From Amoebophrya sp. A120 (Eukaryota > Protista > Dinoflagellata), in the NCBI GenBank assembly GCA_905178155.1, contig CAJINV010000004.1:1580784-1644783 (forward strand): a stretch of 64,000 nt of DNA, written 5' to 3'. Within the stretch, counting starts at the first letter, position 1; every line of letters starts with the position of its first letter. The notes under the pieces are model-generated. The model ran no database searches and was not told the DNA's origin. It saw only the letters and a program-made list of their open reading frames with translations. This document shows, one piece after another, positions 8,066 to 44,718 of the stretch. The position numbers were made by a program, and so were the translations under genes.

Positions 8066-11000
8066 ATGATGTCGGCGGCGTCGGAGCAAAGGACGGCACC
8101 GCGACCTGCAGTCACTTGCTCGCAGCGACACCAGGGATCGACCGACAACAACTCATCTTTGAGAAGAAAACAGCGTCAACAACAAGCACCGGGGGCATGT
8201 TCTAGTGCTACTTTGCGAGGAGGACGAGGAGGAAGGACAACCACAACCATGTATCTTATGTAAAAACGTACCCACCCCATAGTCAAGATGGGGAATCGGC
8301 TAGACAAATCCACGAGCTTTGGCTGTTTCGCATGACAAATTTGGACGCGTAGTGTAGTACTGTTTGAGCTATTTCAGCAGCATTACAGATCTAGTCTCTC
8401 ATGCTGATTGGAGCATGACAAATTTCAAAACACCATTAGAAAATGCTTCTCATCGGGCTCCGCATGAGAAACATTTTAAGCATGCAGATTTGCATGACAA
8501 CTATGGTGTGGGTACGTTTTTACTCAGGATACCATGAGAGCTCTGTCCTCGGCTGCCGGTTTGCTATGCATTGCAAATATGTCTGGGTCTGGAAGAATGC
8601 AAACTTGTGATGCGCATTTCACAACGCATAAGAATCTCTCATGCATAGGCAGCAAAAGCTGCCTACTTTCTGTCACCAAAATCAGGCATCTGTGATGCAG
8701 ATTCGGCATTGCGGAAGCTTCTCGAAACCTGTGATGCTAGAGCTTCCATGCCAGACCTTCTGTGTCATGCAAAAGCAGCATGACTCTTCACTTCCAGACC
8801 CAGACATTTTTGCATTTGATATTTGCTGATCGGATGCAATTACGGTCCAGAACAAGTGTCGGCGCAAACGTTTACCTTCCAGATGGGGGGAGGCGGTGGG
8901 GTATCAAATGTAAAAATGTCTGGGTCTGGAAAGTTGGAACTTGTGATGCTAACTTTAGACTCTAAAAAAATCTGTATTGCATGACCAGCAAGAGGAGCCA
9001 CATTTGTGCTACGCGAGGAGGGCATTTGTCATGCGGAAATGGCATCAGGAAGCTTCCCATAAATCTGTGCTGCTGGGTCATGCATTACAAGCATCATGGA
9101 TCATGCCAGACAAGCATGACAAGCCTTCCATTCTTCCAGACCCAGACATTTTTACATTTGATATGGGGGCCTCGGCGACATTTTGGGCGCCATGATGGGC
9201 GGAGGAAGTGAGTTTTTTTTTGAAGACACATCTACCCTGGTAGAGCCTTTTCGTGGAGTGACTGGAGGGAGTTTCCCCCCGTCCGTTTTTGTATATGGGC
9301 TGGCAGATCCCTAGAAGCTAATGCCTGGAGTTGTTGGTCTTCCACCCCTCTGAGTGGGGTCGGGGAAGGAGCCAACGCGGACGTAGTCCGCAGATTTCGC
9401 TGGATAGGTTGCTTTGTGATGGATTCACATCGTTCTCGCGTTCTAATGAATGGTAGCTCATGTGCTCAGAGTGCACCGCAGCGCCATTCCGCCATTGAGG
9501 GCGTTTCCCAGCGGGGAAGGGTGATTTAGGAAGGTCGCGTTCTAATGAATGGTAGCTCATGTGCTCAGAGTGCACCGCAGTGCCATTCCGCCACTGAGGG
9601 CGTTTCCCAGCGGGGAAGGGTTATTTAGGAAGTTTTCGCTTTAATGGATGGTAGCTCATGTGCTCAGAGTGCACCGCAGTGCCATTCCGCCACTGAGGGC
9701 GCTTCCCAGCGGGGAGGATGGGTTTCAGGATGGTTTTGCGGTTTTTACAACTAGTAAGTGGATCAGGAGGTCGATGTACCAAGATGCCTACTCATGGATA
9801 TTTCTGTTTTTCGAGCCCGTGGGGATATGGGCTGTTCTTTGTTTTCGCTCCTCGTTAGGGCAGGATGTTTCATTCCGAGCTCTGGCCCTCAAGCTCGGGG
9901 TCCTAGATGGGCTGGCTGGAGTTTGTTTTTGTTCGCGTTTCTAGGGAATATGCGGCAGTGCTGGGGAGCATTATGGTGCTGCTCAGGGTGCAAGGCGGGT
10001 TTTGCTCGCCCTTCGATATGTTGCGGGTTTTTCAGCTTACTAGCTACTACTCCGAGTAAGGGCAGGAGGCTCCGAAGCCTCGTTTGGGAAGCCCTGTCGG
10101 GGCCGGATACCTCGCTGTGCTGGTTTTTTAGCGGAAGCCTCGTTTGGGATGACCCGCTTGTCTTGTCGGGTCGGCTAGGCTAGGATAGCTACCGGGGGTG
10201 GTCGAGAAGGCTTTTTGTGCTTTCCTGACGTTAGTCTGTTTAATCTGCTACTCTTGGATCGCATGGGATTTGAGTGCCACAGTGGGAGGCCAGCTTGGTG
10301 CTTGGCTGTTCTAGTCCGTCGCGTTAGCGCCATTTTGGGCGCCATTTTGGTTCTTGGAGCTTGGCGACATTTTGGGCGCCATGATGGGCGGAGGAAGTGA
10401 GTTTTTTTTTGAAGACACATGCGCGCCAAGCAAAAGAAACAGCGCCGGGGCGCAGCCGGCCGGCGTTGCGCCCCCTGGGCATTGGCCCGGCGCGCGAGCA
10501 GTGTATCCGGGCTGCGCGGGTGTCTGCGTTGTGTGGCCGCCGGTGTGTGCCCGCCCCCGCCCGCCGCCCTAGCAGGGCCGGCCGGGGCTTGGAAAGCGGA
10601 AGCGCGGAAGCCAGGCAGGCTCTTGTTCGCCCCTTTCGGTTTTTGTCGGTCCACCTCCGGCCGGCGCCGGACGTCGAGGTAGCCCGTCTGCCCGTGGCGC
10701 GTTGTTGGCAAGATGGAAAACCCGGGCGCGCGGCCTCTTGGCCGGATCTGCGAGTAGGGATGCCCATCAAGCGGAATTGCGACTGGCCGCGAAGGGAGGG
10801 CTGGGGCCGGTCGGCCTTCTCCTGGTCCCCGGCCGGTGGGTTTCGGGAGGGGAACAGGCTAGCGGAGGGCATCGGCAAGCAGCGGCAGGCGCAGAAGCTT
10901 GGCGCGCATCCGCGCTGCCGTGGTTTTATCGGGCCCTCCACAGAAAGTAAGGGGGTTCGGTTGAGGAGGCGCAGGGCCGACCGGGTGGGATTTTGGCCAT

Positions 11001-14000
11001 AAAGCTTGCCGGGCGGAGTCGGCCCTCCGCGCGAGGGGGGGGCCGGCTCGGTAGCCCAGCGGCAAGGCCCTGGCGCAAAGTACTTGCCGGGCGCGGAGGG
11101 CGCCCGCCGGTTTATACCGGAAAGGGCCGGGGTTGCGGTGTCTTTGGGGCCTGGCGCTTCTGGGGGGTATACGATTACCCAGCGACGACACCTCTCGCGG
11201 GGTGGGTGGGAGCATAGTTTTCGGAGGGCGCCATGATGGGCGGAGGAAGTGAGTTTTTTTTGAAAGGGTTCAATTTATTATGAAAGAAATAGGAAATCGA
11301 AATGGAAGCGATCCTCTGTGCAGCACGAAGATCATCTTGCATGGTTGTTGTTTGTTTTCTTGTTCAACACCCGTTCATTTTCATTACTGTCTGTATCATC
11401 TGCAAATATTACATGACTACAAATAAAACAGTGCAAGCGCAGGGTCCCCGGGAACTCCCGTGGCCGGCAGGCGTGACGCAGAAGGTGGATCCGTCGTTCG
11501 AGTGGCTTGTGAACACGGAGTGGGCGGTATCCGCGTGCACAAGAAGAACTCCTCCTCGTCTATTGCCGCGACATTTGATTTCATGCAGGAGAACACGATC
11601 CTATTCTAATCCTTGAATTCAATTTCAAGTTTGACTATTCCCGCATGACAAGCTCTTTGGTGAGGATCTGAAACCGCGTAGCGCACAGCACCGGACGGCG
11701 CTAAGTAGTAAGTACAGAGGTAGATGACCTCGAAGATCTAAATGGTTTGTCTTGCACAAAAAGCTGCTCCCAGCACGTGGTTCCAGCTGCTGATGAATGC
11801 TTCGGTTGCTGTAGATCATGCAAGAACGCAAATTATGGGGCGGGTCGGGGCAATTATTATGACACGGGGTCTCGTTCTTGCGCATCCTCATAGGCGGGTA
11901 AGGCAGGCTCCTACATTTTCAACCGCGACGGGGAGCTCGGGGGGACGGTAAAGTCCTGCGCTCGCCAGGAGGGGATCTGTAAGTGGAGCGCCACGAAGAC
12001 GCACGTCTACCTGAACACGCCCGACACGCAGAAGACGCCGGAGTCGGTGCTGAAATTAGTTGTCCGAGGTACTTATTTTTAGAAAAAACAGATGTATTGA
12101 TGGCGTTGGTTCTTCTCTAGTGGGGTTTTTGTTTCATTTTTTCGAAGAATATTTATGGAATTTCGATTTCAAAAAGCGACATGAAATAAAGCGAATCTTC
12201 AGCATGAGCAACTGCAACAGCAGCACCAGCAGCACACCAAGTTTTAGATAGTACCAGGCCTCCAGATGAAAAGGTAAAGAAGAAGATGATAGCTACAACA
12301 CCTTCTATCTTTCTAACTACAGGTTCCCAGGCGTACGAAAGCAAGAGTGCTGAGGCGAAAGCACGGCTGGACGCGCACAACGAGGAGGAGCTGAAGGCAA
12401 CGAGATTAGAGACCGCAAAAGCAGCCCGGGGAACCGGCAAGCCGAGTGTGATCACTTTCGTCAAAATCGCAGCAAGTGGCGAAGAGGACTCACGTAATAT
12501 TGATTGATTTTTCTACCGTCGAAATGATGTTGTAAAGGAATGATGAGGTAAAGGTGTATGTACATCACGTAGATTGTTGTAGAGTCATAGAATTTTTGCT
12601 ATATTTTCTGTTATGTGCTCAACCACGATCGTTGGACCAACGATTGGTTGAAAAGTGATTCGCGAGAAGAGCAACGCTCGAGTTTTTGGTTATAGAAACC
12701 CAACATATGCCTCACTTTGAATCTTGTTTTTTCACACCTATGATCAAGGATGCCGTGCCGGAACTCGTTCTTACAACGCCGCATCTGCAGTAAATTTTTG
12801 CGCAACGTATGAAATGAATTAATAATTCAAATTCCGTCTCTTCAACCTACTACAGTTTTAGCAGAGGATGCCTTCGCGGTGCTCGACGTGACGGAGGAGT
12901 CATCGCCGTCTGAAATCAAGAAATCCTATCGCATATCAAATGCAAAAGTGTCTGGGTCTGAAAAGGTTGAACTTGTATTGCGTGTCCAGGACTCCCGAAA
13001 AATTTGTATTGCATAAAAGCAACAAAAGCGCCACGATGTCGTCATGAAAGAGCGCAGTTTGCCATGCGCATTAAGCATGAGAAAGCGTTTGAAAAATTTG
13101 TCATGTAACACTGCACTTAGAGGCGCACTCACTCATGACCATTCAGCATTACAGGTTTGCAGACCCAGACATATTTGCATTTCATACCGCAAGAAGTCCG
13201 TGACACACCACCCAGACAAGGGAGGGGATCCCGCCCTGTTTGAGAAGATCCGTCAGGCGTACGAAATTTTGTCCGAGCCAGAGAAGAAAGAGCAGTACAT
13301 TGCTGGCGGTGCACTACTGGTGAAAAATGTGGAAACCTTCACGAAAGAAATGGAAGGACAGGTATAAATATTGACAGAAAACTTATAACTGATGGTAGAA
13401 GTAGAAGATAGAAGGCGTGGTCGTGGGGGTTAACTACGCGCAGTAGAAGATCTTCACGGTTAAGGATCAAAAGAGTCTTCAGATGTCCTGCTTGTGCGGG
13501 GCAATAAAAGCTCCGACTGACAGTCAGACGCTTACTTGCATTGTAAGATGCGGTATTAACCATAACCGCAAGGAGATAAATGAGGCGAAATGGACACCAC
13601 GCGACCATGAAGATGCTTTCACTTTAATAATGTACATCAGGTCGCGCAGCAAATGGCGCAGCTGGACCAGCAGATTCCGAAGAACCACCCCATGCGGGCC
13701 CAAGCCGAAGCGCAGATCAAGGCGCAGCAGCCCAACAAGGCGCAAATGAAGCAGCAGGTCGAGCAGCGCTTGCGACAGGAGGATGTCTCCGTAGACGTCC
13801 CCGTGTCCCTGGAGGAACTTTTTGCCGGAACGGAATCGGTATACCGTATTTTTGATATAGTGACCACAATGTGCTACTAGGTACAGTAGGATTGACAGTG
13901 ACAGGCTCAGGCTTGTTTTGTACAGGACAGTAAATAAACTGATAGCTTCTTGCACATCCAGAAAGAAATTTCGGGCCGCATCAAGATGCGTGGCGTTCTC

Positions 14001-15992: not shown

Positions 15993-16374
15993 ACGAGCCG
16001 TTTTATCTACTAACTTGATAGTCGGGAAGATGTTTATGTTTTCATGGTAGCGTGATACTTACAACTCATATTCAAATCGTACGTAGAGAACAATTTCCTT
16101 TTGTTCCAACGAAGGTCTCGACCCGACACGCGACACAACAGGAATGGAAGTTAGGTCGTGCAGAACATCGCACGTTATTTATTTAGCGAATAAAGTAGAC
16201 GAAAGAAAGCCAAAGCATCAGCATTTCGATTTGAAGGATCCTCTACGATGCGTGACAAAGGTATGTAAAGTCGATTTCTTTTTCGTGGATGATAAAGATG
16301 TACGCCCCCGCTTCCTTTTTCACGGCCCCGAGTACCTACAGAAGGATATCCCCGAGTACCTACAGAAGGACTAC

Positions 16375-17724
16375 TCAGGGTACCCGAGGATAAAGCTGTG
16401 CCTTCTCCTCTTCATCCAGTACCAAGTCCGCCAAGGACTCGTGAAACTCCTGCGCGATTTGGGTCAAATTTCTGGAGAATTTCTGGTAGATTGCCCCCCT
16501 GTAAATGTTCCGGATGTAGCCCATGCGCCGGAGAATTATCGGGTCCTGCCCCGACTGCGCCTTGTACGATTCTGCGATCACAGCGGCGCCGCGAGGGGAC
16601 ACATCGACACCGGCGAGGGGGTGGGTGGCGTTTTTACCGTTAGTGGAATTACCTCCATCAGCAGTTGCTAGTTCCGCTGCTGCGACGGCTGTCGCTTGCT
16701 CCTGTTGTTCCTTTAATAGCTGTTCCTGTTGCTCTTTTGCGGCAGTACTATCGAAGAGATGTTTGTAATACTGCGTTTCAAACTGGGATATGGTGCTCTC
16801 CTCCTCCCGCAACGCTTTGATCTGTCGGATGAAAGGAGCTTCCTCTCCTCTAGAAGTTGCCGTGTCAGGACCAGGAGCACTTCCACCATTAACAATCTCC
16901 TGCAGCTCCCGCCTTCTCTGCTCCAGCCGCGCAACCAACTCTCTCGGCGCCCACCGGTCTGTGTGTTTGCCGAGCCCGACGGCGTTTGTCCGGTCCTCCG
17001 CGCGGAAAAAGAATTCTTGGTACTGGGCATCTTGTTCGTCATACGCAGAGACGAAGAAATTTATTGGGTTGTGCATAATCTTCCCCACGCCGGCGGGCAG
17101 GGGAGCGTCGGGCGTGGCGGTGGAAGTATTCGTCGAGCTCGCGGCGCCGTCTATCGACACAGTATTTTTATCGTTGCCTTCTTGCGTGGTAGCCAAATCT
17201 GTGTTGCTTGTACCAGCACTGTCTGTTGCTCCTGCCGTAGCAGCTACAGGAGCTCCTTGGCTCTTCAGCGCTCCGGTTCCCGAAACCGAGGTGTGAATGA
17301 ATTGCGCAGTACTCGTAGTACCTTGCGGTGGTCCTCCACTTCCGGGTTGTACACCTGCTGGTGGAGCGCCGGGTGGTTGTCCACCTGTAGTCTTGTTCTG
17401 CTGGTAAATCAGCTCCGCCGTGCTTTCCAAATGGTCGTAGACATCGTAGCCCTCCTTTAAGTGGTAATTGTACCCGTGCAACCACGATTCCTGAAACGTG
17501 TTCGTCAGCCAGTGCGCCGGAAACGTCCCCCCCTGCACGGATTCCCGCCTCGCCGACCCGTAGAACAGAAAGAAAGACGGGTGTTCCGGCGAATTTTCCG
17601 CGTAGCACTCCTCTGGCAGCTCCACGATCTCGACCCGGGAAAGCTCCCCCCAAATTTGTCGCTCTTCTTCCCACTCGAAAATCTCCTTGCTATCGTAGAT
17701 GGCTCTGCTAGCCTCTTTTTCCAC
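16375..17724 (-). CDS. Hypothetical protein, main exon; upstream exons probably extend to about 18360
   Basis: 449-aa ORF with a coiled-coil-like C-terminal half; no domain recognised. Confidence 0.6.
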   Translation of the reverse strand: MEKEASRAIYDSKEIFEWEEERQIWGELSRVEIVELPEECYAENSPEHPSFFLFYGSARRESVQGGTFPAHWLTNTFQESWLHGYNYHLKEGYDVYDHLESTAELIYQQNKTTGGQPPGAPPAGVQPGSGGPPQGTTSTAQFIHTSVSGTGALKSQGAPVAATAGATDSAGTSNTDLATTQEGNDKNTVSIDGAASSTNTSTATPDAPLPAGVGKIMHNPINFFVSAYDEQDAQYQEFFFRAEDRTNAVGLGKHTDRWAPRELVARLEQRRRELQEIVNGGSAPGPDTATSRGEEAPFIRQIKALREEESTISQFETQYYKHLFDSTAAKEQQEQLLKEQQEQATAVAAAELATADGGNSTNGKNATHPLAGVDVSPRGAAVIAESYKAQSGQDPIILRRMGYIRNIYRGAIYQKFSRNLTQIAQEFHESLADLVLDEEEKAQLYPRVP

Positions 17725-19123
17725 ATAGAAGGCATACGCACAACTACGTCGTACTTAGTAGCAGACGTCGATGGTTGTACCAAGAAACCCACATCCAATG
17801 CTGTACACGTCATCCTCCACATCTGTACAACAACTGTTCTTCGTTCTAAATTCTATACTTGTAGTGGCACGGGCACCTACCCGCTATTGAATTTTGCCCA
17901 ACATAGTACCAACACAGAACTCCCCGAGTACTTACAACCGGACGAGCAGGGGCTCCTGAATTGGATGTCTTCGATGTCTCTGGTGGTGACAAAACACACG
18001 AAAAAGCCACGACTGCGCGCAGTTACTTAACTTATCATCACACGAAAAAGCATGATACGCACCATACCTAACGACAGAAGCACCTTTGTAAAAACGACCA
18101 TGACCAGCAGAAGCAGGTGTCTCTTTGGTTCATTTTCAAGATTACAACTAAGAAGTACAAAGCGACCGACGAACCCCCATGAACGAATGGAACCACGCAG
18201 CGCCTGGCGTAGTTCACACCAGAAACCTTTATACGATGTGAAATATCGACATTTTCCGGGGGAATAACTTTGTTTGAACGGTATCAATTCGGCGTTTGAT
18301 GCGAGGCAGAAAGGCGGTTTTTCTGTCGAGCACGGTATGAAGTAAAATACACGGAACATGAGGCCCGAAGAAGAAGAGCGACCCGCCGCTCCCGCCAATG
18401 TTGTTCGTAGGATCTACTTGTCCAGGTCGTCTAGACCACACGTAGGTAAACACGACCGGAATTCTCTTCCACAGTACACATAATGTTGTCGTGCTTTTCT
18501 TTTATTTGCGCGTGTGGAAATTGATACTCTCTTGCTTCAAATTGCGAATTTGCTGATCCAAAATCAAAAGCAAAGTCATTGCACAAGAAGAATTGTACCT
18601 AATTTGTCCTTTGCTCCATCATCATGGAACGGTTTTTTTTTGCTTTTTGTTTCATTCTAAGTAAGTTATCTGAAGAGTTCACTTCACATTTATCAGGCTG
18701 CGTTGTAGAAGGGTGATGCGATTATTTGAAAGTTATAACGTCGCATCTTATCTGTATTTAAGAACACGAATTCTCTCAACCATTTTTCTACTTTTAGAAA
18801 GATCTTTAGTCGCGCTTTTCTGTTCTTGCGCAGGCAGCATAAGAATAGGAACGGAAGGAACAAGCAAAAGCGAAACCGGGCCGCGGCTAAACCTAAAGCC
18901 GCGTAGAAATACTTATTACTCTTCAGCAACATAATGTGCGAAACTGCTTCCCTGCCCCTCTGAAAGAAGTGGAAGCGACGAGCTTTCTGCCACACCAAAA
19001 TTACGAAACAAATGGAGTACGGAACTTAATCCTCAAGAACTTACTTCTGCACGAGGACCTCAGAAGACGGCGACAGCAATTTCACCGAATAGTACTCATT
19101 CCGAAAAAAGTGTAGTAAAAAAA

Positions 19124-22242: not shown

Positions 22243-22273
22243 GATGGTGACGGTAGCGTGGAAAAATCTATAC

Positions 22274-23452
22274 AAGAACTCTTGCGCGCCCGCGCGGACA
22301 GTACAACTCATGGTTTATTTCACGCAGCCGGCGCATATAGGTTATTACTGGTGTGTGCCTTCGCCTGCGCGTGTGACTTCGATGACGTCGCCTGCGGGTG
22401 CTGGGGAGGGGTTGGGCGTCCGCGACGTCGTTGTTGCTGCTCTTCGGAGCTCGTGACGACTTCGTTGCAGCTTCCACATGGATGCTTGCTTGCATCTTGC
22501 AGGGCATGTTGTAGGTAGCACTTCGTGTGGAAGTATCAGGAGTGCTGACACGGAAGGAGAGCTGAGGAGCGTGGCCTATCGGCTTCGCGACTCCGTCCTT
22601 CGCTCCTCGGCGTCGGTCCGCCGGTGTTGATTGCTTGAATGCAGTCGACGCAGTCGAGGGGTTCAGCGGTTGGTGTGGGGGCGAGAGGGAGCGCTGCATA
22701 GATGCTCTTTTGCTTCTGTGAACAGGTTCGTTCTTCTCCTGCTTCGGGGTCTCCCAGGAGATCCTGACTCATCCAACGGGCCTGGGGACGCTTTTGTGGC
22801 CTTTGCGAAACTTAAAGCAATCACAGACGCGACAGATAATGTCTACTTACCGAGACGCGTGGTCGGTCGCGCAGTGCTTTGTGCTGCTTCCGCCACGAGA
22901 CGAGTCCGCGGAACCCTCCCGGGCCTTACTTATCTAGTCACATTTGGGAGCACGCCCCCACTATCCTCACCCGGTTCCCGGGTTGTGTCGCGGGGATATG
23001 TCCCGGCACGATTCCACAAGCCTCGCTACTTTGCTACGCCGCCCCGTGCGCCCTGCTCTCTGTCCCCGACAGTGCGGGCTGCCCCCTTTGTTTAGTCGCA
23101 TTTGGGGAAGACATTCGGCGGTCCCAGTCGCGCCTCGCGGCTTGGGCCACCTCTTCTATGTCCGGGGCATGGCTCTGTGGGGGTCGAGAGCCTGGCTTGC
23201 ATGGCCTGCTACCCGTAGCTCGTTGTGCCGGCCGGGTTCTCTCTTGGCTGCCATTGTGACTGTCGCTCGAGGTCTTGCGACTATCACTGCGACGCGCTTC
23301 TGCACGTCATTCGCTTCCGTTGGTTGCGCGCGCGTTCACTCTATGGGTGAATTGCGCAGAGAAGGCGAAATTATATACAACAAGAAGAAGAACTCTTGCG
23401 CGCCCGCGCGGACAGTACAACTCATGGTTTAATATTTCACGCAGCCGGCGCA
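22274..23452. mobile_element. TIR-less insertion of about 1 kb flanked by a 62-65 bp direct repeat
   Basis: Copies at 22274-22335 and 23388-23452 (3-bp indel). Confidence 0.75.
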
Positions 23453-30600: not shown

Positions 30601-32454
30601 TTGTCATGCTCCAACCAGCATGAGAGACTAGATCTGTAATGCTGCTGAACTAGCTCAAACAGCACTACACTACGCGTCCAAATTTGTCATGCGAAACAGC
30701 CAAAACTTGTGGATTTGTCTAGCCGATTCCCCATCTTGACTATGGGGTGGGTACGTTTTTACATAGGATAGATCGGGAAGTACCCCAAGGTGAGCCGCGT
30801 GTGGCTGCACTCGCTGGCCGCGCAGGGCATCGCGGAAGACATGTGGCACCAGCTGGAAATGTGCAAGGACTCCGGCCTGTTGACCGCCCAAGAACTCGGC
30901 TTGCTCGATATTACAGTGAAAAGTGCCCCCCACCCCAAAGTTGCAAAAATTTGTGATGCGAAGTTTCCAAATGAAAACTTTTTGTCATGCATGAAAGGAG
31001 TATGAATCTTTCTGATGCAGATTCTAGTCGTGTTTCGCATCGCTTACATGACAAGCACCGCTCTTGCTGGGATCTTTTGCAATACAAATTTTTGCTATTC
31101 ACGATCGGAAATCTGTGATGCTGATACATGCAAGAAAGCGAATGCTTCATTTGGAAAGGTTTGCAATACAAATGCTTTCAAGTTCGGGGGGGGGGGCATT
31201 TTTCATTGTAATACTCGACGCCAACGTGTTTCACCTGGTGCTGGACCATCTGGAAGCCTACAGCAACCTGGACCACTTGGACCATATTCTGCACCTCGAC
31301 CGTATTACAATGAAAAATGCCCCCACCCCCGAACTTGGGAGCATTTGTGTTGCAAACCTTTCCAAATGAAACATTCGCCCTCTTGCATCTATCAGCATCA
31401 CAGGTTTTCAGTCGTGAATAGCAAAAATTTGTATTGCAAAAGACCCCAGTAAGAGCGGCACTTGCCATGCAAGCTATGCGATACACGCCTACATTCTGCA
31501 TCAGAAAGATTCATACTCCTTTCATGCATGACAAAAAGTTTTCATTTGGAAACTTCGCATCACAAATTTTTGCAATTTAGGGGTGGGGGGCACTTTTCAC
31601 TGTGATAGACCGGGAAAGCAGTTCTAGAGCTGCTTTCGAGCAGCGCGGGCGGGAACAAGCGGGAGCGGAAGCGGTCGGGGGCACCAGCACGACATCATCG
31701 GCGCTGAAACAAGGAACAACAATACCAAATGACGCAGGTGCAGCATCATCCCCCGTGAGTAGCGCCCCGTCCACCCGACTCTCCGTTCCCACGACCCAGC
31801 ACCGACGCACCGTCAGCAAAGATGGCGGAAAGACGGAGGTTTCCATATCCTGAGTAAAAACGTACCCACACCAGAGTCAGGATGGGGATTTTGCAACACA
31901 AACCTAGGAGTTTTGTGAGTCACGCATGACAAGTTGCACTATGCAGCGTAGTGCAGGTTAGCAAGTGCAGCCGCATCACAGATTCATCTGCTCATCCTGT
32001 TCACAGCATCACAAATTCCAAATAAACACGATGGGATTGGCTCTCATGATGGGGATGCGCATTACAAGTCTGCCTGTCTTCGCAAATCTGCATTACAACT
32101 CTGGTGTGGGTACGTTTTTACTCAGGATATTCCACCCTGGCTGGGTCCATTCGGCCCGTGCAGTTTGACTTCTCCAAGGACAAGGAGCAGCGAGCCACAG
32201 TGCTGAAGATGCGGGAGCGAGTCTCCAAGAGCGTGAACAACCGAAAGTCTTGGCGGGGCGCGATCCAGCGAACCCGCAGCCTAATACGGTTGGGCGCGGC
32301 CAGTACGGTGCAGGCGACAACCTCGGGCGAGGAGGAACTACAGAATGAGAACGGCGAAGAAGTTCAAACAGGGCCAACCACGCAGGAGCCGGAGGCGGAA
32401 GCGAACCCGCTGCAAGCAGCGCTCGCGGAGGAGGAAGAAGTAGACGAGGAGTAA
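24617..32454 (+). CDS. Na+/H+ exchanger, CPA1 family (SOS1/NhaP-like), 12 introner introns
   Basis: Joined exons give IDPHVLFWVLLPFLLYE, ILSATDPVAVVGAL, LIAGEALMNDATAVV, VSGVLAVV, GGLRGAVGLAMAL and multiple TM helices. Confidence 0.92.
25106..25356. mobile_element. Introner, family A
   Basis: TIRs; DR aagag. Confidence 0.94.
25399..25678. mobile_element. Introner, family B
   Basis: TIRs; DR ctgct. Confidence 0.94.
25833..26111. mobile_element. Introner, family B
   Basis: TIRs; DR tcctg; near-identical to 31846-32129. Confidence 0.94.
26148..26416. mobile_element. Introner, family A
   Basis: TIRs; DR gggct. Confidence 0.94.
26607..26873. mobile_element. Introner, family A
   Basis: TIRs; DR tgctg. 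Confidence 0.93.
27120..27355. mobile_element. Introner, family A, left TIR largely deleted
   Basis: DR caagg; left end reads tatcaaatgcaacttgtc, lacking tgtctgggtctgga. Confidence 0.9.
27426..27695. mobile_element. Introner, family A
   Basis: TIRs; DR ccacg; splits NDAT|AVV. Confidence 0.93.
29016..29267. mobile_element. Introner, family A
   Basis: TIRs; DR ggagg. Confidence 0.94.
30491..30770. mobile_element. Introner, family B
   Basis: TIRs; DR gatcg. Confidence 0.94.
30909..31213. mobile_element. Introner, family D (tattaca.tgaaaa.tgccccc)
   Basis: TIRs; DR ctcga. Confidence 0.94.
31303..31607. mobile_element. Introner, family D, inverted copy of 30909-31213
   Basis: TIRs; DR gaccg. 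Confidence 0.94.
31846..32129. mobile_element. Introner, family B
   Basis: TIRs; DR ttcca. Confidence 0.94.
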
Positions 32455-36700: not shown

Positions 36701-36797
36701 GAAGAAGAAGACGGGAGAAACAGAAAGCAAGGACATCATCACGAAAACGAGCAACCTCAGTGTTACTCCCATAACGCACCCCCTTGCTCACAAATGA
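33761..36797 (+). CDS. Hypothetical Cys-rich/low-complexity protein, 5' part, cut at about 36763 by a 5.1-kb insertion
   Basis: ORFs 33761 and 35118 join in frame across introner 34795-35129; the last codons run into the insertion. Confidence 0.55.
34795..35129. mobile_element. Introner, family B, diverged
   Basis: tatcctgag...ctcaggata; degenerate DR agttg/agaac. Confidence 0.82.
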
Positions 36798-37723
36798 AAA
36801 AACTCCGAAAGGATTCCGACGAGATTACGAAACTGCGAATGAAAATTGCTGCGGAGGAACTTGCCAAAAATACAGTTTTCGAGATATGAAAAGACGAAAC
36901 GCTTTTTAAAAAAAAGAAGAAAACAATAACAGCACGCTTTCATTGGTTGAGCAACAAACGCGCTCCGCATTTTTACCCCGCCCGGGGAGGCGGCGACACT
37001 GTAACCTTGACGAAAGCGATTCTCACGACTTTGAAACGGCGATGGTGACGATTTTGAAACGGCGACGGTGACGATGAAACGACTGGGGCGATAAACTACG
37101 CCCGAACTTTTACCCCGCCCGGGGAGGCGGATGATGGAACAAGCGGTCAATCGTAGTCATCTATCCAAAGGCTGATCATGAAGACCAGTTGGAGCCGTCT
37201 TTCTCAGGTTGATAATGAAGGGCAGGCTCGCGACCTAATTAGCTCCAGGCTGTTCCTCAGGGTGTGGCGTTGCTCCTCAGGGTTTTCTATGTCAGTTGCC
37301 GTCTAAGTCTTCAGGGTTTTCCGTGTCAGAGTCGTCCTCCAGCTCCACGTCGGACTCCGTGTCCGACTCAAGGGATGAAATGCAAAAGCGTTGGGATCTG
37401 GTGGAATGCAAAGCGTCTGTTCAAAACAGTGGCACAGCACCGGGGAAAGAACGACTTCAACTGCACTCGCTGGCTCTCAGATGGAAAACAATCTGCCAGA
37501 TCCATACGCTGGGTGTGGATAACAACACAATGGGATCGTCCGGGGTGCCCGTTCCCGCGCGCGGGGGAGGCGGCGCTGGCGGTCCGTCGTCTGCCATAGT
37601 TGGAAAGCAGCGGCAACAAAGAGTCAATGTATTCAGTTTCTAAAGGGAACAAGTTTCCACAACAAAGCTTCCACAAAAAAGATTCAGTTTCTAAAGGGAA
37701 CAAGGCGAGCGAAAGCTATGCTC

Positions 37724-37898
37724 AAACATGTTTTCAATACAGAAAAGAGACATGAAAAACATGTGTTCAATACAGAAAAGAGACATGAAAAACATGCGTT
37801 CAATACAGAAAAGAGACATGAAAAACATGTGCTCAATACAGAAAAGAGACATGCTTGCAATACAGAAAAGAGCATGCTTCAATACAGAAAAGAAACAG
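37724..37898. repeat. 33-bp tandem repeat (four full and two partial units)
   Basis: aaacatgtgttcaatacagaaaagagacatgaa units. Confidence 0.92.
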
Positions 37899-38531
37899 GA
37901 TACAAACTGGAAAAGTTTCATCGACAGGAACAAAAAGAACCATGGACACAAAACTCCGGCTCTCCATGGAGGTGGAGTGTACCCGAGCGCACGGCTATGA
38001 AGAGGCAAAATATGTCGGGGCCTACACGTGCGATTTAGATTTTGGACAGGACGACAATAGGACGACGCGCTAAATTTTGAACAGATTGAGTTTCAAACGC
38101 AAGACATGAGCATGACAACCCCTTTGCATGACCAGCCTCCAGACATATTGCAATAGATAAACTTCCAGGCGTTGCATGTTGCACATCTCACATGCTCTAA
38201 ATTCACCTGAGTAATCGATGGGCTTCGAGTTGAGTAATCGATGGGCTTACTTTTTGACAGTCTGTGTCGAAAGAAATGCACGCAAAAAGAGAGAAGCATT
38301 GCCAAAAGAAGAAAACAACCTAAACAAAGTACGCAAATAGCATAAAAAAGTAAACAAATAGAGTACCGCTATATTGCAGGAGTTCTGCAGTATAAAACAT
38401 ATTGCAGAATGCAGCGGCTCCAAAAAAGCGCGGGGGTTTTTGGCGGCGAGCACCTCCGCTCGGTTCGAAACGATGTTGCCCGCTTTTAGTTGTTCGTACA
38501 ATTTACTCGTATTCGGTGCTGCAGCTACTGA

Positions 38532-38750
38532 TATCAAATGTCAAAATGTCTGCGTCTGGGAACTTGTGATGCTGTGCGGCGTATCATGAGGAGGCGACAA
38601 TTGCTGGCTCAGCATGAAAAGTTTCTGAGCTTCTAGGTGTTGCCTATTTTGCATGACAGACTACGTTTCTGCATGACAGATTTAAGAGTCATGCCAGACA
38701 AGCATGACAAACTTGCATTCTTCCAGCCCCGGACATTTTTGCATTTGATA
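38532..38750. mobile_element. Introner, family A, inside the large insertion
   Basis: TIRs; DR actga. Confidence 0.88.
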
Positions 38751-39349
38751 ACTGAAGCTTACCCCTACGACGGCGGGTGAAATTCAGGCGTCGCAATACT
38801 TTTAAAGGACTTTCAAAAAACTTTGAAAATTTCAAACTTTCTTGGTCGCCCACATGAAAAAAAAACGCAGAAAGTTGCCCGCCGGCTTGGAAAAAAAAAA
38901 TCGCCTCTTGGCAGTATGTGGCAGGAAAAAAAAAGTCGGAAACGACGCGCAGACCCAAAAAAAAAGCAGCAGGAGGAGGCTGCGTCTGGGTTTTCTTTTT
39001 TTGCTCTTTGGCCTCATAGCAAAAGGACTGCTCTGCGCTTCATGGGCGCGACAGAAATCGCACACATTTGGTGGGGAGCACTTCATGCAAAGTCCCCCTG
39101 TCCCCTTCCAAAAAAAGAAAGGCGTCGCCCGGTAGTAACTCGGCGAAAAAAATGGCACGGCTGCGGCAGTGGTCTGGCGAAATTTGTTGCAGCTACGCTT
39201 GGCGGCTTTTCGCAATATCAAGCGCCACAGTTACGGCGCGAAACGGGGCCGGCCCCGGGTCCGGCCGCCCATTATGGGCGACCGGCATCGCGGGATCCGT
39301 TTGTAAGCGGCTGCGTTTGGAAGCCGTGTATGAATGAAACGGAAAAATT

Positions 39350-39915
39350 GCGTAGAGAATACCATGCGGCACGCGCCTCGCACCGGGGGCACGGTGGGAG
39401 TTGGTTCGCCCAAATGGCGCGGTGTTCGGGACGGCCAAAGTGCCCGAATCCGCTCGGGGAACGTGTTAAAAACACAGTCAATTCCCTGGCCCGATTCTGC
39501 CTGCGGCCAGAAAAGTCGCGAGTTTTCCTGCTCAAAAGACTTTGAAAAGACTTTGAAAAAACTTTGGAAAGACTTTGGGAAAAGCGCCCAGAAGTGCGCG
39601 CTTTTTGAAAGCTTCGCCCGATGGTATGGCCAATTTTGGCCATGCAAAAACGGGAACGCTTTTCAAAGTCTTTTCAAAGTCTTTTCGAAGTCTTTTCCAA
39701 AGTCTTTTCAAAGTCTTTTCGAAGTCTTTTGAAAGTCTTGCGTCTGACTTTGGCGAGGCGGCCGGACCTCAGACTTTGGCGCGGGAAGTTGGGCCATACC
39801 GTCGGGATTCGGCCAGTCGGCCGGGTCCAAAAGAGACAAAGAAGGCCAATTTTGGCCATTTGTGTGCTGCCATGCCCCCGGGGCTGCGCGCGTGCCGCAT
39901 GGTATTCTGGGCACC
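39350..39915. repeat. Large imperfect palindrome with opposed 12-bp arrays
   Basis: gaataccatgcggcacgcgc (about 39357) mirrors gcgcgtgccgcatggtattc (about 39888); aaagactttgaa arrays mirror ttcaaagtcttt arrays. Confidence 0.82.
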
Positions 39916-40621
39916 AAATTCGCGGCGCCGCGAAGTTGGAAGGCGGCGCGGCGCATGTGACACATGGGGGGTCGCAGTACCACCGGCGCTGCGCGCGTGC
40001 CGCCTGGGTATCTGGCCGCATCTTTCCTAGCGCCGCCTCCGAAGCGGAAGCAGCTCGCGGCGCCGCGAAGTTGGGGGCATGTGACACACGGGGCGTCGTA
40101 GTGCCGCCGGCGCGGCATGCGTGCCGCGTTACAATCTGGCAGCGTTTTTCCTTCTGCCTATGCCACGCCCCAAGTGGGCCCACTGCTTTAACGCGCCGCG
40201 CAGTCCCCTACTACAGCAACAAATGGCGACGGAACTTCGCGCGCCCTTTCGCCCTCGCTGTGTTTTTTTCTTGATGTTGGAAAGGGCCGCGCCCAGCAAC
40301 GCGCCGGGGGCGCAGCCTCTTACCTAGCGCGCCATCCGGGCAACGGGAAGCGCAGGGGGACAGCGACAGGGCATGGGGCAACCAAAAGAAGGGCGCCAGC
40401 GTGTGGCGCGCGGCCCGCAAGCAAAAGTTTTATCATAGTTCTGCCCAAGTATTTCGGCTGGAGGAAACGCCTGGGCGTCGTAGGTGTAAGAAGCGTTCTT
40501 TTGCGGTGCCGGCTCCCGTTCTGCCACGCGGCTGGGCAGGACGCGACTCGCATTCTTGTTGTGTGTGAGCATAAGACGTTCCTGTTGGTCCGGCAGCAAG
40601 GCGTTGTAAGCTCTGAAGAGT

Positions 40622-40736
40622 TATCAAGTGCAAATATGTTCGAGTCTGGAAGGATGTGAAACCTGCTTTCTTCTGCATAAGAAGCCTGAGCGTGCAAATC
40701 TTCGTCTTCCAGACCCAAACACATTTGCATTGCATA
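40622..40736. mobile_element. Mini family-A element (115 bp)
   Basis: Both TIRs with almost no interior; DR poorly preserved. Confidence 0.72.
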
Positions 40737-41872
40737 AAAATGCACCGAACCCTAAGCGCACTCGTTCCCGCACACAGCCATCAGGTATGCACTGCAAGAG
40801 CATCGCACTCGTCGGAGTCTCTTTATGCGCGAATTGCGCGCAAGAGTAGCGAGTGCGATACTTTTGCCAGAAAGCAAGGACATGAGGAGAAACAGAAAGC
40901 AAGGACATCATCACGAAAACGAGCAACCTCAGTGTTACTCCCGTAACGCACCCCCTCCCAAGGCCGGCCGAAAACATCCCACGGCCGGGCCCGTGCTCGT
41001 AGTTAGTCAAATGCACGACGTTGTCACCCATCACAATGAGCAAGAGTCTGTACGTTCACTACCCCGGCCGCCTCCGTCGTGAAGTTTGGTTGCGGTCGTC
41101 GGAGAAGGGCCAGAACCTACAGAAGGAGAAGGAGTTATTACAGCGAAAAAGCCCGCAGCCATCTCAAGACGCGCTGTCTGAGAACAAAAACCACGACTGT
41201 CCTGCATGACAATTTTGGGTGGTCTGTCGGCTTTTTTAACGGAATAGGTGCGGGCGTTTGACTACTCTGCCCGCCGCGTTCTTTGCCTTGACGCGGAAAA
41301 CAACAAGCAGACAGACACCAACCCGACAGACAACAACCAGACAGCAGCAAAACAGCACCCAAAAAACAACAGCCTCCACCGACCTGGCGCCCGGGCTGCA
41401 GCGTCTTCTACCAAAGCGGCAGCGGCAACAGCGCTCAGCAACTTCTGCCGGAACGCCGGAATAAACCCCGCAAATGCCACAAAAGGTAACAGGAACATTG
41501 GCCCCCGGGCTTTTGTAGTGCGGATTTGACTTCGCAGAAAGATTTTTAATGCAAGAACTGCATTGATTTTTATACGAGTGCGATACTTTTGCAAAGGATA
41601 GCCATTGAGCTGGAGCGGCTCCGGATCCCCACGCAGCCACGCCGTATCCTGTGTGAGTTTTCCCGCACTGCCTCTTCGTGCGGCGCTCACGTCGCGAGCC
41701 ACGTCGGGAAACTGTGCACACAGGATAAAGCTAGTCAGCAGTTTAGGGCCCGGATATGATAGATGGGCGGCGTGAAGGCGTGCAAGGCGCGCAAGCAAAA
41801 GAACAGAACGAGCGTTCCCGCCGATGCATTTGCGGGCCAGAGTCTCGAGCAGCTACAGGCTGCAACAAGAAG

Positions 41873-44718
41873 AGAAAGCAAGGACATCATCACGAAAACG
41901 AGCAACCTCAGTGTCGAGGCTCGGCTGCTCAAGCGCGCAGGGTTAATATTGAAGCAGGGAGATGAAAATGAACAACGAGTATCATCTGTGGATAAAACTC
42001 GTCGTCCCGAAGATCTTCTTGATGCACGGAACAAATTAATCCCCTAGAACACCTGGCGCTGGCGCTGAACCAGAAGACGCTGAAAATAATTGTATCGAAA
42101 TTCTAAACGAGAGCTCCTGCGCAACAACTCGCAAGGATCATCTCCTTGCAGAAGAGCATGAACAGTCCCCACCTGCCACTAGTGCAGCCTCCGCTGTTGT
42201 TCCTCTTGCGCGAGACGAAGAAGTAGACGGAAGTGCGGAGGAGGACGCGTTTGATTTCTTAGTTGACATCCTTCGTGCGGACCCGGAGCAGGACCATGTG
42301 GTGGCTCAAGAGGCACGGGGGCACCTTGCGGAAAACAAGAGAGCTACTGCTACACCAGCGGATGCGGATGTGGAAATACAACCAGCACACGAACATCAAG
42401 AGCATCCAGTACTCGTTTCGCAAGAAAAACTGCGGCAATTTTTGAAAGTGCTGCGTCCCTACTTACGCACACTGGAAAAACGGATCGCGGTTGCCGGCGG
42501 TGGAGCTGCTGCGGTTGAAGATGTTGTAGTTGCCGGTGAAACAGGTTCAAAGGAAAATGATGAAAACGTCGACCACCTCCAGCAAAGAACAAGCATCATG
42601 ACAGTAGAGCCACCTCCTTGCCCGGAGCCGGAGGTGATAGGACTAGCTTCCTCGACGACGACGCACTTCGTACCGCGACCACAGCAAGAGGAGATGATGT
42701 TGAGCGCTAGGATTAGCCGCGACGTGGACCACACCTCCATGCCGCACTTTCCGCGCGGACACACGCAGCCGCTGTTGCGACGGCAAAGACGGGAACTACA
42801 GAATCAACGGCGGTCTGATCCTGCCAGCTGCATCCTCGTGGACGATACCACTAATAAAGAAACCGGTCGCGCGCACACCCCGGTGGGACCCACGTGCGAC
42901 CCCTGTTGCGTGATGACGGTCGGGCGCGCGCGCGGGTTGGGGTGTTGCGAGCAGGGACTGTGCGAGCCGTGTCTGTGCGAGGACAACTGGAACCCGAAGC
43001 CGTTTTCCGCCGTGGAGCGCAACGTGTGCGACGGCCGCGTGCGAGCCTGCCTGCTGTGCTGCTGCGTGTCCTGCTACATCCCCTACCACTGCGGCCCGGC
43101 CTGCGCCCTGCAGCCGGGCTGCGCAGAGGCCGCCGCAGCGGATTTCTGCGCAGAATCCCGTCGCACCGCTGCCGCGGCGAGGGCGGTGCGCGAGGGAATG
43201 GTCGGCGTCGGCGCGATATCAAACAGGAAAGTACTTACTGTTACACCCAGCTGTAGGCTTGGTGCCATATCAGAAGACTAAGTATTTGTCCTCGTGAAAT
43301 TTTTGGCATCACAGACACAGTGCCTATTGTTTGTCCAGAAGCAGTTTATTTTTTGGCTTCATTTTTGATTTTGTCATTCGCTGTGGCTTCTCGCATTTGC
43401 GTTTTGCATGACCACAAATGAGCGTCTCCATATTTCTTTTCTCTGAATGACAGCGACGTGCGGCCACTTCAACATATACAAATTCGTATTCGTTTTTTTC
43501 TGGTTGTACAACTATGTGGGTACTTTTCTCCATGATACGCTTCCTGCGGGGTCTGCTGTAGCCTGAAAATGTTGCGTGGCTACTGCAACAAGGCTGCGGA
43601 GTTGCAGAAGGTACTGTATAATACTCTGATTTGCCTGTCGTGCGGCCGTTTTGTTCTGGACATGCATAGTGGGACGAGATCAAGGGAAGTTCTTATGTAA
43701 TATTTTTGGAGCTTGTGAATCGCTACAATGCCCGCCATGATCATCATTCCCTGCTTTATTATTGCCACAGGCCTGGAATTTGCAGCTTCACGAGGTGCCG
43801 CAGCACCACGGAGGACAGAGTAGTGTCGTGCACGGGTCGACGTCCCGAGCAGAAGTGACTTTGGTACAACAACAGCCGGGGACCACGACTTCTACACCAG
43901 GTCGCGTGCTACTTACTCCTGGTACCACGTCTGCAACAGAAACTTCTACGACGCCTGGCGCTGCTCAACACGACGACAGCCACCACCTCTCTCGGTGCGA
44001 CCACTGTTTCCGTGGCGTGTCGCTGACGTTCGCCGGGTATCAAATGTAAAAATGTCTGGGTCTGGAACAGTCATGCTGTTTTTGCATGACACAGAAGGTC
44101 TGGCATGGAATATCTAGCATCACTGGTTTCGAGAAGCTTCCGCAATGCCGAATCCGCATGACACATCCCCCACTTTGGTGACAGAAACTGGGCAGCTTTT
44201 GCTACCTATGCATGAGAGATTTTTCTGTGTGCTGAAATGCGCATCACAAGTTTGTATTCTTCCAGACCCAGACATTTTTACAGTTGATACCGGGTACTCG
44301 GAGGCGTGGGCCCGTGCCGCTGCGGGCGAGTATCATATGTAAAAGCGTCTTCGCCCGATAGTCAAGTTGGGAACTTAGCAACACAACTCCAGAAGTTTTG
44401 GGAGCCACGCATGACAAGTTGCAGTCCGTAGTGTAGTGCAGGTCGGCAACGGAGATCGCATCACAAATCTATCTGCTGATCCTGTTTTCAGCATTACAAA
44501 TAACAAAACACGATTGAAAATGCCTTTCTTGGGTCAGCGCATTGCAAATGTTCCTATAGAATCGCAAATCGAAATCTGCATGACAACTCTGGGGTGGGGA
44601 CATTTTTACACAGAATAACGAGGGCTGGTTGTTTCCGGATACCTGCAATCAGCTGCAGAAAGTGGAGGAGTTGGAAAGAGTCTGCGAAGAAATGAGGACC
44701 AAATGCAGGACTGTTTGA
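41873..44718 (+). CDS. Probable 3' part of the 33761 gene (Cys-rich); possibly pseudogenised
   Basis: Frame resumes at the duplicated ESKDIITKTSNLSV. There is a stop/frame break near 42040-42047, then a long ORF and in-frame joins across introners 43217, 44038 and 44331 to a stop at 44718. Confidence 0.5.
43217..43537. mobile_element. Introner, minor family (aaagtac), diverged
   Basis: tatc...aaagtac / gtacttttctccatgata; DR cgcga/cgctt; frame restored. Confidence 0.72.
44038..44289. mobile_element. Introner, family A
   Basis: TIRs; DR ccggg. Confidence 0.93.
44331..44617. mobile_element. Introner, family B, diverged
   Basis: TIRs; DR gcgag/acgag. Confidence 0.87.

What the first reader, a model, noticed from the sequence alone, without database searches (positions are those of the whole stretch)
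9174..41914. A second, TIR-less insertion system: kilobase cargo flanked by 39-71 bp target duplications with polar stuttered junctions
Seen: three independent loci (9174-11264, 22274-23452, 36714-41914) have unrelated 1-5 kb sequence between long direct repeats of local host sequence, with no TIRs and no long ORF. The downstream copies are preceded by scrambled pieces of the target (gcgccattttgggcgccattttgg; tatacaacaagaag; cagaaagcaaggacatga), always on the same side, while the left junctions are clean. Two loci share a target-X-target-Y-target layout in which copies 1 and 2 are longer at both ends than copy 3. Known: duplications this long occur with some site-specific non-LTR retroelements (CRE/SLACS, R9), and templated stutter is typical of polymerase-theta end joining. 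Inference: one recurring mechanism, distinct from the 5-bp-DR introners, captures DNA at widely staggered nicks and revisits the same site. I do not recognise it as described.
Basis: partly seen in the sequence, partly recalled or inferred. Interest (0 to 1): 0.88.

Follow-up and report, generated by a model that had tools for sequence, protein, structure and literature searches.

The report
Insertions with long, stuttered target duplications
In a parasitic dinoflagellate, five DNA pieces of 0.8-4 kb lie between near-exact 39-71-base copies of the surrounding sequence, likely pasted in by a reverse-transcribing jumping gene that would cut the two strands far apart, and two of the three spots were apparently hit twice.

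Summary
The structures are real. Three loci hold five inserts (0.8-4.1 kb) between direct repeats of 39, 42, 58, 62/65 and 71 bp; chance gives at most 18. Read contigs contain 5 of the 10 junctions. The host is Amoebophrya sp. A120. Targets are an exon end plus splice donor, a likely 3' UTR and an ORF, now truncated. New here: two inserts (1X, 2) belong to dispersed repeat families without terminal inverted repeats, while three (1Y, 3Y, most of 3X) are single-copy, with no donor seen. Stutter is strong at 2 of 5 right junctions, weak at 2, absent at 1; no left junction is strong. No empty 36-75-bp duplication occurs, so duplication comes with cargo. Best reading (0.45): target-primed reverse transcription with a distant second nick; R2 5' junctions show the same stutter, and R9 and Dualen show long duplications. 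No reverse transcriptase, shared end or tail was found. Capture at staggered breaks (0.3) remains. Donorless cargo and the double hits (chance about 1e-4 to 4e-4) are unexplained. No empty allele could be tested.

The parts
9174..9231 (+). Locus 1 copy 1 (58 bp): 11-nt left extension, 40-nt core (exon end, GT donor, T-run), 7-nt start of insert 1Y
   Evidence: host gene has a DnaJ domain downstream
9232..10326 (-). Insert 1X, member of a dispersed family without terminal inverted repeats; sense strand inferred; 99-bp x 2.8 array at 9436-9715
   Evidence: depth 1138/259/130 in three bins vs 39-47 for single-copy contigs; TRF; minus strand A-rich
10327..10362 (+). Stutter at the right junction of 1X: 12-bp unit of the target repeated twice, plus 12 unassigned bases
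10363..10420 (+). Locus 1 copy 2 (58/58 identical to copy 1)
10414..11225 (.). Insert 1Y, 70% GC, single-copy, no stutter at its right end
   Evidence: contig 10446-11255 depth 45.3, 0 differences; bin 10665-11164 depth 45.7 at 85% likeness
11226..11264 (+). Locus 1 copy 3 (39 bp), continuing into a 35% GC host intron
22274..22335 (+). Locus 2 copy 1 (62 bp), 32 bp after the inferred stop codon (22240-22242) of a RanBP2-zinc-finger gene
   Evidence: (Zn_ribbon_RanBP E=0.0016 upstream, below cut-off)
22336..23373 (-). Insert 2, member of a dispersed family without terminal inverted repeats; minus-strand frame from ATG 22772 with a RING/C2HC-like Cys-His pattern, an in-frame stop at 22538, running into the left junction
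   Evidence: depth 478/547/778; depth reaches both junctions; (zf-C2HC_3 E=0.0056, below cut-off)
23374..23387 (+). Short mosaic of target and upstream pieces at the right junction of insert 2
   Evidence: 6-mer cover P=0.047
23388..23452 (+). Locus 2 copy 2 (65 bp; 3 bases more than copy 1)
36714..36784 (+). Locus 3 copy 1 (71 bp): 8-nt left extension, 42-nt core in the reading frame of the host ORF, 21-nt start of insert 3Y
   Evidence: annotated protein P0002 ends 11 codons into the cargo
36785..40867 (.). Insert 3X: single-copy backbone with nested introners (38532-38750, 40622-40736), a multi-copy TIR element (38758-40490) and a MITE (40786-40867) whose right inverted repeat is cut about 8 bases short
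40868..40885 (+). Stutter at the right junction of 3X: 16-nt exact piece of the target plus 2 bases
40886..40956 (+). Locus 3 copy 2 (70/71 identical to copy 1)
40936..41872 (.). Insert 3Y, single-copy apart from a MITE end at about 41512-41600; weak mosaic of flank pieces in its last 40 bases
   Evidence: contig 40937-41902 depth 44.3, 0 differences
41873..41914 (+). Locus 3 copy 3 (42 bp); the host frame stays open for 57 codons from here

Best explanation
Five inserts lie between long copies of host sequence, and they were likely made by target-primed reverse transcription by an unidentified non-LTR retroelement that would nick the second strand 39-71 bases from the first. Shown: the duplications, the lack of terminal inverted repeats, repeat-family status of 1X and 2, same-strand stutter at some right junctions. 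Inferred steps: the + strand is nicked at the right edge of the target and primes synthesis of the insert, giving the clean left junction; the new 3' end then makes false starts on the single-stranded opposite target strand, giving the stutter, and finally copies the whole overhang, giving the downstream copy. 1X and 2 would be non-autonomous or truncated family members read on the minus strand. 1Y, 3Y and 3X would be passengers whose donor loci this strain no longer carries. In the triple loci Y would come first; X would then land 7 or 21 bases inside it with a wider nick pair, either in a second round or in a repeat of one unfinished reaction.
For: Variable long duplications with no empty 36-75-bp tandem duplication among 34 TRF rows or in the exact-repeat scan, so duplication is tied to cargo delivery. 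1X and 2 are multi-copy with no terminal inverted repeats. All stutter pieces are same-strand; reverse-complement matches are at chance in 10 of 10 junctions. R2 has uniform 3' junctions and 5' junctions with repeated same-strand pieces of the target (PMC3774820, passages and Fig. 5 legend). ZfL2-2 5' extra bases are ascribed to template jumps (PMC2666801, passages). R9 makes 126-bp and Dualen median 900-bp duplications (PMC9977147, passages). The polarity predicts minus-strand sense; insert 2 has its zinc-finger-like frame on that strand, starting 600 bases from the stuttered end, and 1X and 2 are both A-rich on it (AT skew -0.28 and -0.30). 1X depth falls from left to right. Non-LTR elements are reported in this organism (PMC7789003 section 5; PMC12130899 passages).
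Against: No reverse transcriptase or endonuclease domain in 20 cargo/flank frames or 31 other frames of the window. The five inserts share no left-end sequence and no tail; only locus 1 has a T-run near a left junction. Insert 2 is deepest at its right end, the opposite of 5' truncation, and its frame runs into the left junction. Three inserts have no second copy at 85-90% likeness, although the duplications are recent (1 substitution and 2 indels in about 270 bp). 3X ends inside a MITE. 3X and 3Y have the opposite strand skew (+0.2). 1Y has no stutter. The zinc-finger match is below Pfam's cut-off and has no homologues. No ribozyme was found.
Confidence: 0.45

Rival explanations
1. Host repair captures DNA fragments at breaks made by two nicks 40-70 bases apart. 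Both overhangs are filled in, which duplicates the target, and a loose fragment is joined in, one end by ligation and the other by iterative polymerase-theta-type priming. Fragments cut out elsewhere, for example by the very active introner transposition, would leave no donor.
For: Explains arbitrary ends: a cut frame in insert 2 and a MITE cut about 8 bases short in 3X. Explains single-copy cargo and the lack of tails. Paired nicks 43-50 bp apart give near-full-length duplications, and repeated nicking gives compound ones (PMC8355091, passages). T-DNA capture gives filler more often at one end (PMC10923293, passages). All 5 duplications start with two purines, as primase fill-in would favour (local frequencies 0.28-0.58; noticed after the fact, and not independent).
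Against: Empty duplications should outnumber those with kilobase cargo; none of 36-75 bp is present. No source of paired nicks is known, nor a reason to revisit. Repair-patch (class 2) insertions in humans lack target duplications (PMC5110952, passages). The family depth of insert 2 reaches both junctions, which fits a whole element, though a piece of a longer one fits too.
Confidence: 0.3
2. An HUH (Replitron- or Helitron-like) enzyme joins the 5' end of single-stranded cargo cleanly to a nick, and the free 3' end is resolved by host synthesis on the opposite strand, giving a fuzzy right end and a variable duplication.
For: Replitron-1 of Chlamydomonas has a clean left end, a fuzzy right end and variable duplications (10.1101/2022.12.15.520654, section 8 part 1). 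The route works at DNA level.
Against: No shared left terminus or short terminal direct repeat among the five inserts. The RG target is met at 0 of 5 left junctions. Replitron fuzz comes from the donor flank; here it comes from the target. Copy-and-paste leaves donors. No Rep domain was found.
Confidence: 0.1
3. The layouts are assembly artefacts or chance local duplications.
For: Contigs from 31-mers cannot phase across 39-71-bp repeats. Five junctions were not among the listed pieces. X1 may be the source of the assembly (tool caution).
Against: Repeats are 2-4 times the null maximum. Contigs stop exactly 30 bases into a copy, as a true repeat forces. Runs of a second sample and study (X3, X5) hold copy-to-cargo junctions at loci 2 and 3. 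Unique cargo has the same depth as its flanks. The public protein model reads into 3X.
Confidence: 0.05

Closest known systems
R2-type (restriction-like endonuclease) non-LTR retrotransposons: R2 junctions, R9 of rotifers, Dualen of Chlamydomonas (PMC3774820 passages; PMC9977147 passages)
   Same: One uniform and one irregular junction, the latter with repeated same-strand pieces of target; long target duplications (126 bp for R9, median 900 bp for Dualen-4b); no terminal inverted repeats.
   Different: Here no RT gene, no shared end or tail among inserts, no common target sequence, three inserts without a donor, and two sites hit twice by unrelated cargo.
Tandem duplications at paired nicks and T-DNA capture by end joining (PMC8355091, PMC10923293; passages)
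   Same: Duplication length set by nick distance (43-50 bp in the experiments), filler templated from the break flanks, asymmetry between the two ends of captured DNA.
   Different: In those systems the nicks are supplied by Cas9 and cargo is a minority outcome (8% of mutant alleles for T-DNA); here all five long duplications carry cargo.
Replitron-1 (10.1101/2022.12.15.520654, section 8 part 1)
   Same: Clean left end, untidy right end, variable duplication.
   Different: Defined 6-bp terminal repeats, RG target and donor-derived fuzz are all absent here.
Templated sequence insertion polymorphisms, class 1 (PMC5110952, passages)
   Same: Non-element sequence inserted with a target duplication.
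   Different: Class 1 has poly(A), a TTTT/A site and a genomic template; here no tail, a T-run at 1 of 3 loci, and no donor for 3 of 5.
Introner elements of Amoebophrya (PMC7789003 sections 11, 16; PMC12130899 passages and 32 of 58 A120 table rows)
   Same: Same genome; both land in genes.
   Different: Introners have terminal inverted repeats, 3-5-bp repeats (2-6 in the rows seen) and are spliced out. Inserts 2 and 3X are retained in RNA-like contigs, and 3X truncates the annotated protein.
Penelope-like elements (PMC8557442, passages)
   Same: Variable duplication, 30-40-bp tails, complex tandem insertions.
   Different: Their tandems repeat one element; here X and Y are unrelated, and no hammerhead or RT was found.

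Membership tests
Non-LTR retrotransposon insertion (own or trans-mobilised) | Variable-length target duplication | tested here: met
   39, 42, 58, 62/65, 71 bp; empty site itself not seen
Non-LTR retrotransposon insertion (own or trans-mobilised) | No terminal inverted or long terminal repeats at the insert ends | tested here: met
   one 13-bp inverted pair starts at the left end of 1Y but closes 316 bases before its right end
Non-LTR retrotransposon insertion (own or trans-mobilised) | Reverse transcriptase and endonuclease in the insert or in a partner with the same 3' end | tested here: inconclusive
   none in 51 frames scanned; the rest of the genome is not held
Non-LTR retrotransposon insertion (own or trans-mobilised) | Shared 3' end with poly(A) or simple-repeat tail | tested here: not met
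   not shared among the five inserts; ends of other family copies could not be read
Non-LTR retrotransposon insertion (own or trans-mobilised) | Dispersed copies or a genomic donor | tested here: inconclusive
   met for 2 of 5 inserts, not met for 3 of 5
Non-LTR retrotransposon insertion (own or trans-mobilised) | Copy number rising towards the 3' (clean) end | tested here: inconclusive
   yes for 1X, reversed for insert 2; summed contig depth is a rough measure
Non-LTR retrotransposon insertion (own or trans-mobilised) | Extra or target-derived bases at the 5' junction only | tested here: inconclusive
   right: 2 strong, 2 weak, 1 none; left: 0 strong, 1 nominal
Penelope-like element | Partial tandem of the same element (pseudo-LTR) | tested here: not met
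   X and Y do not align
Penelope-like element | Hammerhead ribozyme (absent from some clades) | tested here: not met
   no Rfam ribozyme; a loose recalled core pattern gave 18 hits, 3 in 3X, none in 1X, 1Y, 2 or 3Y
Replitron/Helitron | Conserved left terminus, short terminal repeat, fixed target dinucleotide | tested here: not met
   RG at 0 of 5 left junctions
Amoebophrya introner | Terminal inverted repeats with 3-5-bp direct repeats | tested here: not met
Amoebophrya introner | Removed from the transcript | tested here: not met
   RNA-like contigs keep insert 2 (X5 22274-23417) and read into 3X (X3 36741-37762); a minor skipped form cannot be seen in contigs
End-joining capture at a staggered break | Empty duplications of the same size more common than those with cargo | tested here: not met
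   0 empty vs 5 with cargo in 64 kb
End-joining capture at a staggered break | Dependence on polymerase theta or NHEJ | not testable with these tools
   needs genetics or gene inventory
Any insertion mechanism | Empty allele with one target copy | not testable with these tools
   raw-read runs X9 and X10 laid 2 and 0 reads; contigs cannot phase the repeats

The most novel reading that the evidence does not exclude
Amoebophrya has a dedicated integration system that ignores cargo sequence, moves rather than copies DNA, always duplicates 40-70 bases of target, and returns to its last site, building target-cargo-target arrays in which the newest piece is added at one side, much as a CRISPR array grows. 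At the density seen here that would mean thousands of events per genome.
Probability: 0.15. Interest if true: 0.88.

Novelty: new variant of a known kind. Interest (0 to 1): 0.52.

Why it matters
Work on this genome has centred on introners, which spare genes by being spliced out. These inserts are a second, less benign class: one truncates an annotated protein, one sits in a likely 3' UTR, one duplicates a splice donor. If the density holds (five events in 64 kb), they are a major source of structural change in a genome noted for fast protein evolution. Routine 40-70-bp duplications with stuttered ends would give many natural junctions for studying how the second end of a retro-insertion is joined, a step the papers read here call unresolved. 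Donorless cargo and repeat hits, if general, are explained by none of the systems compared.

Tried and rejected
No whole genome is held, so the genome-wide scan was impossible. No listed holder is on record as RNA; X3-X5 are treated as RNA-like because they skip introners. Joint and loose-end tables were swamped by introners and cut (18, 210, 757 and 1360 rows not shown). Long-repeat non-canonical intron: rejected for inserts 2 and 3X because RNA-like contigs retain them and P0002 ends in 3X; 1X and 1Y lie inside an ordinary GT intron. Ribozymes: none by Rfam in four scans. Protein searches with the insert-2 frame (X at the stop): 0 of 885 and 0 of 80 candidates; no language-model or structure comparison of it was obtained. 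Metagenome pattern from insert 2: one hit, a 23-base chance match. Foreign origin: 1Y vs plasmids, locus 3 vs phages, one 1Y pattern vs prokaryote genomes and one 1X pattern vs viral contigs all gave nothing; eukaryotic host genomes were not searchable. The locus-1 stutter resembles the dinoflagellate spliced-leader core (recalled, not tested), but a 12-bp unit of the target explains it. The extension shared by copies 1 and 2 as a family end was rejected because the two extensions are unrelated. Earlier findings: none for this genome or sequence.


Full report
Setting. The window is 51% GC and dense in 115-340-bp elements with inverted ends and mostly 5-bp flanking repeats (45 masked). These fit the introners described for Amoebophrya A120 (PMC7789003: abstract, sections 5, 11, 16, passages and one supplement search). 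The ORF at locus 3 matches one database protein at 100% identity, named by its source as Amoebophrya sp. A120 (1 hit among 7996 scored candidates). No whole genome was available.

The observation. Pairwise alignment gives 58/58, 39 of 40 with one T fewer, 62 matched with a 3-base indel, 70/71 and 42/42. After masking introners, the only exact direct repeats over 23 bases at 100-8000 bp distance are these copies and one pair inside the 99-bp array of 1X; 50 simulated sequences reach at most 18. There are five inserts: 1X, 1Y, 2, 3X and 3Y.

Which part is host. At locus 1 the core is an exon end, a GT donor and a T-run. Copy 3 continues into 35% GC intron-like sequence, whereas 1Y is 70% GC. The gene carries a DnaJ domain (E=9.8e-9), and RNA-like runs have no depth over 1Y (0 in 3 of 3 runs, bin 10665-11164). 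At locus 3 the core lies in frame in a long ORF. The frame stays open for 57 codons from copy 3, for 35 from copy 2 and for 24 from copy 1. The public model P0002 ends in 3X. At locus 2 the target lies 32 bases after an inferred stop codon. So copy 3 (or copy 2 at locus 2) joins the original downstream sequence, and the cargo is inserted. The simplest reading of the triple loci is nesting: Y first, then X 7 or 21 bases inside Y, with a duplication reaching 11 or 8 bases further left.

Read evidence. Eleven runs were listed; six were laid. X1 behaves as DNA, with single-copy contigs at depth 39-47. X3-X5, from another sample and study, skip introners and behave as RNA. Five of ten cargo junctions lie inside listed contigs. 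Two are bridged by more than 31 bases on both sides (copy 1 to 3X in X3; copy 1 to insert 2 in X5). Three reach exactly 30 bases into the copy (1Y, 2, 3Y), one short of the tool's bridging rule but just where a 31-mer graph must break at a repeat. The other five were not among the listed pieces, which are cut. Order across the repeats and empty alleles cannot be tested with contigs.

Copy number. This changes the picture. In X1 the bins over 1X give 1138, 259 and 130, and single places 937, 515, 336, 281, 199 and 143-188; the first bin may be inflated by the adjacent introner. Insert 2 gives 478, 547 and 778, with a contig of depth 315 differing at 11 of 464 bases. Depths measured at single places reproduce the bin means only if the family reaches both junctions of insert 2 (488 expected vs 478; 758 vs 778). 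In contrast, 1Y (45.3), 3Y (44.3) and 36813-38572 of 3X (47.4, 42) are single-copy, with no other contig at 85% or 90% likeness. Summed contig depth is only a rough count. The duplications differ by one substitution and two indels in about 270 bases, so a donor that was copied should still be recognisable. It is not there.

Junctions. Against 3000 random 40-mers, two right junctions carry strong target pieces (15 and 16 bases), two carry weak mosaics, one carries none. No left junction is strong; one is nominal. Every piece is same-strand. Polarity therefore holds as a tendency. All three loci point the same way, which by itself has a one-in-four chance. TRF lists 34 rows; none outside the cargo has a period of 20 or more, and no empty duplication of 36-75 bp exists; one 24-bp empty duplication lies at 16326. 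With five events per 64 kb placed uniformly, two double hits among three loci have a chance of 1e-4 to 4e-4.

Cargo. The inserts do not align to each other beyond short motifs and have no terminal inverted repeats. Pfam finds no RT, endonuclease or Rep domain in 20 cargo and flank frames or in 31 other frames. Insert 2 has a minus-strand frame from 22772 with a Cys-His pattern like a RING or C2HC finger (family names recalled; Pfam E=0.0056, below cut-off), broken by a stop and running into the left junction; no homologue was found. 3X holds two introners, a 1.73-kb TIR element (bins 255-456 deep) and a MITE cut about 8 bases before its end by the right junction.

Mechanism. Target-primed reverse transcription predicts one clean and one irregular junction and a duplication equal to the nick distance (PMC2666801, passages). 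R2 5' junctions include strings of repeated same-strand target pieces while 3' junctions are uniform (PMC3774820, passages and figure legend; PMC11371274, passages). Long duplications are known for R9 and Dualen (PMC9977147, passages). The strand this predicts for insert 2 agrees with its frame and base skew, and with the skew and depth gradient of 1X. I give this 0.45. Against it stand the missing RT, tail and shared end, the reversed gradient of insert 2, the opposite skew of 3X and 3Y, and three donorless inserts. Capture of loose DNA at staggered breaks (PMC8355091, PMC10923293, PMC5110952; passages) explains ragged, single-copy cargo but predicts empty duplications and no revisits: 0.3. 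A Replitron-like route (bioRxiv 10.1101/2022.12.15.520654, passages and section 8 part 1) has the right polarity but fails on termini and target: 0.1. Penelope-like tandems (PMC8557442, passages) repeat one element, which is not the case here. Artefact: 0.05. The remainder is mixed or unknown origin; the five events need not share one cause.

Membership and novelty. It works like a non-LTR insertion, but I do not file it as a member of a named clade, because the shared 3' end was tested among the five inserts and not met, and no partner enzyme was seen. Searches for Amoebophrya with introner and direct repeats, with target site duplication, for dinoflagellate non-LTR duplications and for Syndiniales structural variation (15 of 3544 listed) showed no paper on such insertions. 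PMC12130899 (passages; 32 of 58 A120 rows of one table; files 13-14 not searched) assigns some A120 introners to non-LTR elements and lists duplications of 2-6 bp in the rows seen. Verdict: a real, apparently undescribed class in this genome, most likely a variant of a known mechanism, with two open anomalies. Interest 0.52.

Noticed in passing
window 38758-40490: A 1.73-kb non-coding element with 15-bp inverted ends (14 of 15 matching), 3-bp flanking repeats and nested internal palindromes; a contig of depth 255 matches it without differences, so about 5-8 near-identical copies.
   Followed up: partly
window 16393-17908: Segment at about twice single-copy depth (contig depth 80.6) carrying a 459-codon minus-strand ORF among plus-strand genes, with no long flanking repeat; a 24-bp tandem duplication lies at 16326-16370. 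It could be the donor or acceptor of a duplication.
   Followed up: no
window 42037-42050: The host frame after copy 3 of locus 3 stops after 57 codons while a coding-like 413-codon frame begins in the next phase; DNA-like and RNA-like contigs agree with the sequence. The disrupted gene may be decaying.
   Followed up: partly
window 36965-37130: Inside 3X, a 23-29-bp direct repeat 137 bp apart encloses a 23-bp tandem array; possibly a small event of the same kind.
   Followed up: no
window 10421-10460, 40300-40430, 41760-41800: 1Y, the TIR element in 3X and 3Y share a 10-11-base motif, and 1Y and the TIR element a second GC-rich one; alignment scores are near the shuffle maximum except for the 3X-3Y pair.
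   Followed up: partly
window 23378-23388 and 41863-41873: The right junctions of inserts 2 and 3Y end in the same 10-11 bases; both targets begin with similar purine runs, so this may be stutter and not an element end.
   Followed up: partly
window 30909-31607: Two 305-bp introners in inverted orientation, 92% alike, 87 bp apart.
   Followed up: no
window 9164-9174: Copy 1 of locus 1 begins 10 bases after the end of an introner; the other two loci are 155 and about 1580 bases from one, so no link is evident.
   Followed up: partly
window 22427-23417 and 43092: RNA-like contigs differ from the window at 2 places in insert 2 and at 43092, where the DNA-like run agrees with the window; strain difference, editing or polishing error is undecided.
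   Followed up: no
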